Assembly (NCBI GenBank): GCA_951406725.2
Contig: OX597825.1
Coordinates: 82,708,001-82,772,000 of the forward strand
Direction of reading: 5' to 3'
Source: Octopus vulgaris
Lineage: Eukaryota
Length of the DNA: 64,000 nucleotides
Below, piece after piece: positions 45,963 to 46,520 of the stretch. Both the position numbers and the translations under genes were made by a program. Below the pieces are notes generated by a model. It ran no database searches. It had not been told where the DNA came from and saw nothing but the letters and a program-made list of their open reading frames with translations. Positions within the stretch are counted from its first letter, which is position 1, and each line of letters starts with the position of its first letter.

Positions 45963-46004
<42 letters not shown>

Positions 46005-46164
46005 GTGTATGATGAACTCTTCCGTCGAAGACGACGAATGAACATTTAGCATTTTTACCGAGAAGCCTGCACAAATGATTTGTTTATAATAACCAAATAT
46101 TCGTGCCGCACATTAGCCAACTCTCTCCATCAAACCGACGTTGTCTGAACAGGTGTACGGTGTA

Positions 46165-46287
46165 CTACACCTTAGGTAAGATGAAGAGTGTTGCACAAGA
46201 ACACAGCACACCTTCCAGGTCTAGGTATTGAAATCACGATCTTTCGATCGTGATTGCGACACCCTAAGCATCACGCTATGAGCCCTC

Positions 46288-46288
<1 letters not shown>
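46165..46288 (-). mobile_element. Old tRNA-derived SINE head (family C-like)
   Basis: Reverse complement: gcttagggtgtcgcaatcacgatcgaaagatcgtgatttcaatacctagacc. Confidence 0.5.
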
Positions 46289-46329
<41 letters not shown>

Positions 46330-46459
46330 TACGGAGATGTACTCGCATAGCATCTGAGATCGTGTGCTGAAACGAAAACAATTGCAGCGTGGAAGGTGTT
46401 TATAAGCCATTTAAGAAACACACAAAAGCCGTTCGATTCACTTCAACATTTAAGTTTAA

Positions 46460-46509
46460 TTTGTCAAAATATTTTCGTCGCTAAAATCCGCGACCTGTTC
46501 ACTGACAAA
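46460..46509 (-). ncRNA. Intact minimal type I hammerhead ribozyme motif, G3-C8 variant
   Basis: TTTGTCA-GTGAACA-G-GTCGC[ggatttta]GCGAC-GAAA-ATAT-TT-TGACAAA: perfect 7-bp stem I and 5-bp stem II, palindromic stem III, all invariant core bases present with the 3-8 pair swapped. Confidence 0.8.
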
Positions 46510-46520
46510 GTCCGTGCTGC

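What the first reader, a model, noticed from the sequence alone, without database searches (positions are those of the whole stretch)
46460..46509. Fully paired minimal hammerhead ribozyme with a swapped catalytic pair (G3-C8)
Seen: the minus strand reads UUUGUCA-GUGAACA-G-GUCGC[GGAUUUUA]GCGAC-GAAA-AUAU-UU-UGACAAA. That is a perfect 7-bp stem I, a perfect 5-bp stem II, GAAA, a palindromic mini stem III (AAUAUU) and a UUU cleavage triplet. It sits in a ~190-bp island between two (TA)n tracts. Established: the hammerhead core CUGANGA needs a Watson-Crick 3-8 pair, the C3G/G8C double swap restores activity in engineered hammerheads, and Penelope-like elements carry minimal type I hammerheads whose palindromic stem III works through dimers. 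Inference: this is a natural G3-C8 hammerhead that searches for CUGANGA would miss.
Basis: partly seen in the sequence, partly recalled or inferred. Interest (0 to 1): 0.85.

Follow-up and report, generated by a model that had tools for sequence, protein, structure and literature searches.

The report
Octopus jumping-gene hammerhead with swapped pair
Thousands of copies of an octopus jumping gene end in a hammerhead-shaped RNA motif whose two paired core letters are swapped (G-C for the usual C-G); it likely still cuts itself slowly, which is untested, and a standard RNA family search missed it.

Summary
The motif is real and not private to this copy. It is a minimal type I hammerhead at the 3' end of a Penelope-like retroelement (RT plus C-terminal GIY-YIG). 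The exact 50-mer occurs 1,611 times; 5,777 of 6,291 core matches carry G3-C8, and 30 of 30 ORF-bearing loci have it about 1 kb behind the stop codon. Relatives carry the same fold with C3-G8 or U3-A8 (9 of 18 metagenome loci, one sister family). An old repeat family in this genome has the same inner stems with C/U3 and mostly G8. So G3-C8 is a derived swap that keeps the pair. Against strict selection: that old family also holds many U3·G8 and C3·A8 copies, G3·G8 copies are in excess, and the all-A-U stem III is very weak. Cleavage is untested, and this solo copy is probably a passenger. I found no natural G3-C8 in the papers I could read, but four key papers were not held. This scan noted G3-C8 before in phage and protist DNA (unchecked). 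Verdict: new variant of a known kind.

The parts
46330..46520 (-). 5'-truncated solo 3' end (pseudo-LTR piece) of a Penelope-like retroelement
   Evidence: 952 first-look candidates; the 39 other best-scored places match its whole length at 95-96%; same sequence about 1 kb behind the RT-EN ORF in 30 of 30 loci
46503..46509 (-). stem I, 5' arm
46496..46502 (-). core box GUGAACA: G3 at 46502, C8 at 46497, A9 at 46496
   Evidence: G3-C8 in 5,777 of 6,291 matches
46495..46495 (-). extra nucleotide between 9 and 10.1, a known trait of Penelope minimal hammerheads
   Evidence: PMC4209133 text; G in 9 of 9 metagenome relatives that have a motif
46477..46494 (-). stem II (5 bp, G10.1-C11.1) with an 8-nt loop; the loop differs between subfamilies
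46468..46476 (-). GAAA box and palindromic mini stem III AAUAUU (A15.1 46473 to U16.1 46468)
46466..46467 (-). predicted scissile bond after U17 (UUU triplet); cleavage not tested
   Evidence: inferred from hammerhead numbering
46460..46466 (-). stem I, 3' arm
46330..46380 (-). optional 3' tail of the element; this copy lacks 10 nt of it
   Evidence: 58 of 119 copies end near 46381, 40 carry the tail, 21 have neither
46291..46329 (.). (TA)n tract, likely the insertion target
   Evidence: (TA)n preference of Penelope-like clades in PMC8557442
46521..46561 (.). (TA)n tract, likely the insertion target

Best explanation
This is a minimal type I hammerhead motif with a G3-C8 core pair, fixed in the pseudo-LTR of an abundant Penelope-like retroelement, and it likely cleaves the element's RNA slowly after UUU when two copies pair through the palindrome or the element's protein assists folding. 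Shown: anatomy, family-wide fixation, link to the RT-EN ORF, tandem layout pLTR-ORF-pLTR with two motifs 4,261 nt apart, and C3-G8 or U3-A8 in relatives. Inferred: the swap arose from C3-G8 through mismatched steps and the pair was restored. Position 8 would still supply its 2'-OH, and C8 would still pair with G3. U17, shared with the closest C3 relatives, would avoid the G3-C17 trap. Inferred: reverse transcription mostly uses uncut RNA, and the window copy is a lone, probably inert product of it.
For: Exact 50-mer: 1,611 copies, control 0. 20-mer counts: G3-C8 5,777, non-C8 356, non-G3 with C8 158. Older subfamilies: G3-C8 in 98 of 100 listed of 247 and 75 of 100 listed of 291; none of those 200 rows is C3-G8 (hand counts). 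1,025-aa open frame with GIY-YIG, E 1.8e-5; motif 962-1,141 nt behind the stop in 30 of 30 loci, and tandem pLTRs in L327. The sister family (57% amino-acid identity, SH-aLRT 100) has C3-G8 at the same place. 9 of 18 metagenome relatives with 3' flank show the fold: 5 C-G, 4 U-A, none mismatched, all with palindromic stem III and G9.1 (L133 and L135 read by eye). The old family's majority line matches in the inner 5 bp of stem I, stem II, U4 G5 A6 A9 G9.1, GAAA, U16.1 and U17; it differs at 3, 7, 8, two outer stem I letters and three inner stem III letters. [quoted passage not shown] G3-C8 works better without C17 (PMC3884650, data not shown there).
Against: No cleavage data. In the old family (34 rows) the 3/8 letters are U-G 13, C-A 9, C-G 8, U-U 2, U-A 1, U-C 1, and position 3 is a 17:17 C/U tie. 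The C-A rows appear to share other letters (by eye), so a mismatched source element may have spread. G8 makes up 42 of 100 listed non-C8 copies, against 10 of 100 for the mirror change G3 to C. After two substitutions, 3 of 9 end states pair by chance alone. The AAUAUU duplex is -0.2 kcal/mol against -4.3 to -7.5 for three relatives' palindromes (AUAUAU is also weak, -0.8); forming stem III costs 1.8 kcal/mol in the dimer and 5.4 in the monomer. The best fold pairs G3 with U17. Hammerhead mutants do not reduce insertion in vitro, and no RNA ends were found at the cut site in the anole element.
Confidence: 0.62

Rival explanations
1. The motif descends from a hammerhead but no longer cuts at a useful rate. 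The stems are kept as a folded handle for the element's protein or for its promoter or reverse-transcription stop. Positions 3 and 8 drift, and G-C is a lucky end state carried by the successful master elements.
For: Mismatched 3-8 states in 25 of 34 old-family rows, counting 13 U·G wobbles. Excess of G3·G8. Sister family has C9 and L129 has U15.1-A16.1. 83 of 94 copies start within 25 nt upstream of the stem I arm and keep the scissile bond. Cleavage is dispensable for insertion in vitro.
Against: U4, G5, A6, G12, A13, A14, NUH and the palindrome are kept across elements with 29-55% protein identity. 9 of 9 metagenome motifs and the sister family have a Watson-Crick 3-8 pair. G3·G8 copies form no clade, so no successful G3·G8 master is shown.
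Confidence: 0.3
2. It cleaves as a monomer, helped by an unrecognised loop II tertiary contact, so solo copies like this one cut host transcripts.
For: Stem I (7 bp) is longer than usual for these motifs, and both stems fold reliably in context.
Against: Closing 15.1-16.1 in the monomer costs 5.4 kcal/mol. Loop II differs among five subfamilies with no partner change that I could see by eye. Published minimal monomers showed no cleavage (PMC4209133).
Confidence: 0.06
3. Chance look-alike inside a repeat.
For: Rfam gives no hammerhead hit.
Against: 0 descriptor hits in 150 resampled windows; canonical hammerheads lie behind the ORF in related elements.
Confidence: 0.02

Closest known systems
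Minimal type I hammerheads of metazoan Penelope-like elements (Cervera and de la Pena 2014, PMC4209133)
   Same: Located in the pseudo-LTR; extra base between 9 and 10.1; G10.1-C11.1; palindromic 15-16 region; NUH; mostly solo truncated copies and inverted pairs.
   Different: Core is G3-C8. The 56 aligned examples in its Fig. S3 begin CUGA or UUGA. Stem I is longer and stem II shorter than in its Schistosoma families.
Natural U3-A8 core variants (Perreault 2011, PMC3088659; Schistosoma Cercyon elements, PMC4209133)
   Same: A natural two-letter change that keeps the 3-8 pair.
   Different: Needs two transversions and reverses purine and pyrimidine; G3-C8 is not named in the sections I read.
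Engineered C3G/G8C double mutant, including the anole Poseidon element PAc (PMC11167929; review PMC8495972)
   Same: Same swap; same class of ribozyme in PAc.
   Different: Here it is natural and fixed in thousands of copies; activity is unmeasured; position 17 is U.
Penelope-like elements with C-terminal endonuclease, Neptune/Nematis type (PMC8557442)
   Same: RT then GIY-YIG, CX3CX2C linker, (TA)n targets, tail, inverted 5' copies.
   Different: Clade not placed by a tree with named references; the short spacer resembles the Nematis rows of Fig. S2.

Membership tests
Hammerhead ribozyme (type I) | Three-way junction with stems I and II, ends in stem I | tested here: met
Hammerhead ribozyme (type I) | U4 G5 A6, A9, G12 A13 A14, A15.1-U16.1, H17 | tested here: met
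Hammerhead ribozyme (type I) | Consensus letters C3 and G8 | tested here: not met
   G3 and C8 in 5,777 of 6,291 matches; no Rfam hammerhead hit
Hammerhead ribozyme (type I) | Watson-Crick pair between 3 and 8 | tested here: met
   G-C here; C-G or U-A in 9 of 9 metagenome motifs and the sister family; often broken in the old family
Hammerhead ribozyme (type I) | Loop I-loop II tertiary contact | tested here: inconclusive
   none seen by eye across five loop II variants; usually absent in Penelope motifs (PMC6155905)
Hammerhead ribozyme (type I) | Site-specific self-cleavage | not testable with these tools
   no assay; only assembled contigs were available
Penelope minimal hammerhead | In the pseudo-LTR, on the sense strand of the RT-EN ORF | tested here: met
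   30 of 30 loci; tandem copy L327
Penelope minimal hammerhead | Extra base 9.1, G10.1-C11.1, palindromic mini stem III | tested here: met
Penelope minimal hammerhead | Works as a dimer | tested here: inconclusive
   the double-hammerhead structure is nested and costs 1.8 kcal/mol against the open dimer; it is not the best fold
Penelope-like element (EN+) | Single ORF with RT and C-terminal GIY-YIG | tested here: met
   GIY-YIG at residues 915-1005. Pfam gave no RT hit on this protein; RT rests on the YVDD motif (recalled) and on homologues named or annotated as RT
Penelope-like element (EN+) | Tandem pseudo-LTRs, inverted 5' copies, optional tail | tested here: met
Nematis clade | Placement with named Nematis RTs in a tree | not tested
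   only a motif comparison by eye with Fig. S2 of PMC8557442
Non-LTR retrozyme | Head-to-tail 170-400-nt repeats with canonical hammerheads | tested here: not met
   copies are solo, inverted, or tandem at 2-4 kb spacing

The most novel reading that the evidence does not exclude
G3-C8 is a third working natural state of the hammerhead core. A Penelope lineage reached it through mismatched steps, because single rounds of jumping need no cleavage while long-term survival restores the pair, and U17 made the swap tolerable. CUGANGA-anchored searches would then have missed whole ribozyme families, perhaps including some in Penelope clades reported to lack hammerheads. This genome would hold the before and after states on one scaffold.
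Probability: 0.35. Interest if true: 0.65.

Novelty: new variant of a known kind. Interest (0 to 1): 0.45.

Why it matters
It supplies a natural, high-copy example of a core swap known to me only from engineered mutants, next to a C3-G8 homologue with the same stems. That gives a ready pair for measuring what the swap costs. It shows that descriptors fixed on C3/U3 and G8/A8 undercount hammerheads; PMC8557442 used a 'cuganga' string for its core search. It bears on an open question, what Penelope hammerheads are for: the pair is kept between families but often broken within old ones. It changes no mechanism of catalysis.

Tried and rejected
Rfam at E up to 10 gave no hammerhead family.

RNA evidence: no RNA holder listed. 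The four runs laid were contigs and show no ends, strand or level, so they say nothing on cleavage.

Viral contigs: 22 pattern matches, no relative.

Second G3-C8 family in this genome: 363 matches against 189 control. The first 100 rows are a repeat that looks like a tRNA-derived SINE head (recalled, untested), decayed copies of this family, and stemless matches; 263 rows were not seen.

G3·G8 as a basal or amplified subfamily: not supported. There are 19 changes for 20 tips, shuffle mean 18.1, with 863 of 1,000 shuffles as low. The tree rests on about 200 nt and is weak.

Structure-versus-flank test across subfamilies (1 of 41 against 17 of 106 columns, p = 0.024): rejected as circular, because copies were picked by the 5' half of the motif, grouped by loop II, and 5' truncations add false variation.

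The MAFFT alignment of 15 motifs was out of register and one row (L191) was mis-cut, so no pair count was run on it.

The old family is tied to an RT only by one weak hit (L274, E 2e-5). Its homology outside the motif is moderate: 7 of 34 copies beat all but 2 or fewer of 200 shuffles.

Nine of 18 metagenome loci showed no intact motif: L136, L138, L145, L146, L148, L149, L155, L159 (decayed) and L176. Part of the output was cut.

Not held: Lunse 2017, Przybilski and Hammann 2007, Nelson and Uhlenbeck 2008, and a 2012 RNA review.

Copies that begin at the cut site could not be counted genome-wide.

Full report
Observation. The minus strand of 46460-46509 reads as reported, with the numbering given in the observation check. 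The 61-nt fold is better than 198 of 200 shuffles, but longer stretches are not exceptional. A relaxed descriptor finds only this site in the window and none in 150 resampled windows. Rfam lists no hammerhead family at E up to 10.

Copy number. The genome (2.8 Gb) holds 1,611 exact copies of the 50-mer, control 0. A 20-nt pattern over stem I, core and stem II matches 5,777 times with G3-C8, 356 times with another letter at 8 and 158 times with C8 but not G3: 5,777 of 6,291, or 92%. Two older subfamilies with other loop II sequences are G3-C8 in 98 of 100 listed rows and 75 of 100 listed rows. No C3-G8 row appears among these, nor among the 100 listed (all hand counts). The host is an octopus: a protein that its source names Octopus vulgaris matches this genome at 99-100% in its best copies. 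Contigs from runs under four organism codes hold the repeat, and loose-end consensus lines from three of the four runs span the G3-C8 core. The codes may not be four species.

The element. Longer copies lead upstream through a microsatellite-rich UTR to a 1,025-aa open frame with a C-terminal GIY-YIG domain; its first 25 or so residues come from an inverted junction. In 30 of 30 ORF-bearing loci the G3-C8 motif lies 962-1,141 nt behind the stop on the same strand, and L327 shows pLTR-ORF-pLTR with two motifs 4,261 nt apart. Inverted partner copies, (TA)n flanks and two 3' end classes (58 short, 40 with tail, 21 neither, of 119) match Penelope-like elements as described in PMC8557442 (passages) and PMC11167929 (passages). 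The CX3CX2C linker with a short spacer looks like the Nematis rows of Fig. S2 of PMC8557442; the clade is not established. The window copy is a 191-nt solo end with no second motif in the window.

Covariation. A sister family in the same genome (57% identity) has C3-G8, with C9, in its 3' UTR. A metagenome scan gave 73 loci. Of the 18 with 3' flank that I examined, 9 show the same minimal fold about 100-400 nt behind the ORF match: 5 with C3-G8, 4 with U3-A8, all with G9.1 and a palindromic stem III of varied sequence. In a 15-row protein tree (L191 and L197 left out as too short; four outgroup rows under half filled, with long-branch warnings) this family pairs with the sister family at SH-aLRT 100, G-C occurs once, and the 3-8 state changes at least 4 times. 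A pattern with C3-G8 and this family's stem II found 5 places, control 0. They belong to an old repeat family (437 first-look candidates) whose majority line keeps the inner stem I, stem II and the rest of the core. Its tail aligns with this family's tail (64 identities in 93 aligned positions, with long gaps). G3-C8 is therefore most simply derived from C3-G8 (inference).

Results against. In that old family the 3/8 letters are U-G 13, C-A 9, C-G 8 and others 4 of 34. Within the G3 family, G8 is 42 of the 100 listed non-C8 copies, against 10 of 100 for the mirror change at 3. The 20 G8 copies fetched all have older loop types and do not form a clade; I cannot explain the excess. The palindrome is all A-U and nearly without pairing energy, and the best fold extends stem I by a G3·U17 wobble. 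In the anole element, hammerhead mutants insert normally in vitro.

Mechanism. Shown in the literature: G8C alone lowers the rate about 100,000-fold, the 2'-OH of residue 8 is essential, and C3G partly rescues (PMC8495972, passage). The anole Penelope hammerhead behaves the same way and needs its protein. Minimal monomers do not cleave and dimers cleave weakly (PMC4209133; review PMC6765202). Inferred here: slow cleavage after UUU by two motifs of one tandem transcript, or with help from the protein. A G3-C8 variant was more active with G17 than with C17 (PMC3884650, data not shown there), which suggests that U17 spares this family a G3-C17 trap. Also seen: 83 of 94 distinct copies, picked by the core pattern alone, start within 25 nt upstream of the stem I arm, 55 of them at 10-19 nt. 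These copies keep the scissile bond, so they come from uncut or rejoined RNA. A transcription start there plus internal priming at the tail, as shown for the anole element, would give exactly such 200-nt copies; a reverse-transcriptase stop at the structure would too. Neither is tested.

Prior art. Natural U3-A8 is published (PMC3088659, section 8 and passages; PMC4209133, parts 1-2 of 4 and supplement parts 1-2 of 3). Full-text searches for G3-C8 spellings, octopus hammerheads and related terms returned no paper reporting a natural G3-C8. Passages of PMC7229834, PMC13725137, PMC6155905 and PMC10085705, part 1 of 5 of bioRxiv 10.64898/2026.07.22.740005 and the hammerhead table of PMC8557442 name none. 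Four papers most likely to bear on this were not held, figures and the bioRxiv supplements were not visible, and Repbase and Dfam could not be checked, so absence from print is not established. Earlier notes of this scan report G3-C8 in phages and in protist Penelope-like elements; I did not test them. This genome had no earlier notes.

Verdict. A real Penelope-type minimal hammerhead whose family is fixed for G3-C8. It is predicted to work like a hammerhead; it fails the C3/G8 consensus letters, and activity is untested. New variant of a known kind; interest 0.45.

Noticed in passing
L202-L261, L297-L326, L087-L098: 5' ends pile up just upstream of the hammerhead: 83 of 94 copies within 25 nt of the stem I arm. 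Possibly a transcription start or a reverse-transcription stop.
   Followed up: partly
G000, 356 matches: Unexplained excess of G at position 8 in older subfamilies; recurrent rather than one clade.
   Followed up: partly
L262-L296: Old repeat family with the same stems and mixed 3/8 states (U-G, C-A, C-G); the C-A rows look like a subfamily.
   Followed up: partly
L104:4646 (+) and other loci: Young sister Penelope-like family with open frames up to about 1,312 aa; its hammerhead has C9 and a non-palindromic AGAACU stem III.
   Followed up: partly
L085:6184 (-) and 6370 (+); L086:9479 (-): Another repeat with a U3-A8 minimal hammerhead and ACGCGU palindrome, as an inverted pair in L085.
   Followed up: no
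L129:4973; L130:2497: Metagenome relatives with U15.1-A16.1 (L129) and with U3-A8 plus C9 (L130).
   Followed up: no
L232, L236 (G000 C2 206.16-206.19 Mb; C3 26.61 Mb): Tandem arrays of about 2.2-kb units, each holding one G3-C8 motif with a G-U variant in stem I.
   Followed up: no
window 46000-46290: A repeat that looks like a tRNA-derived cephalopod SINE beside the element (recalled, not tested).
   Followed up: no
L032:5482-8788; L033:505-2400; L035:4054-5106: Other Penelope-like ORFs and a transposase-like ORF near copies of this family (labels recalled).
   Followed up: no
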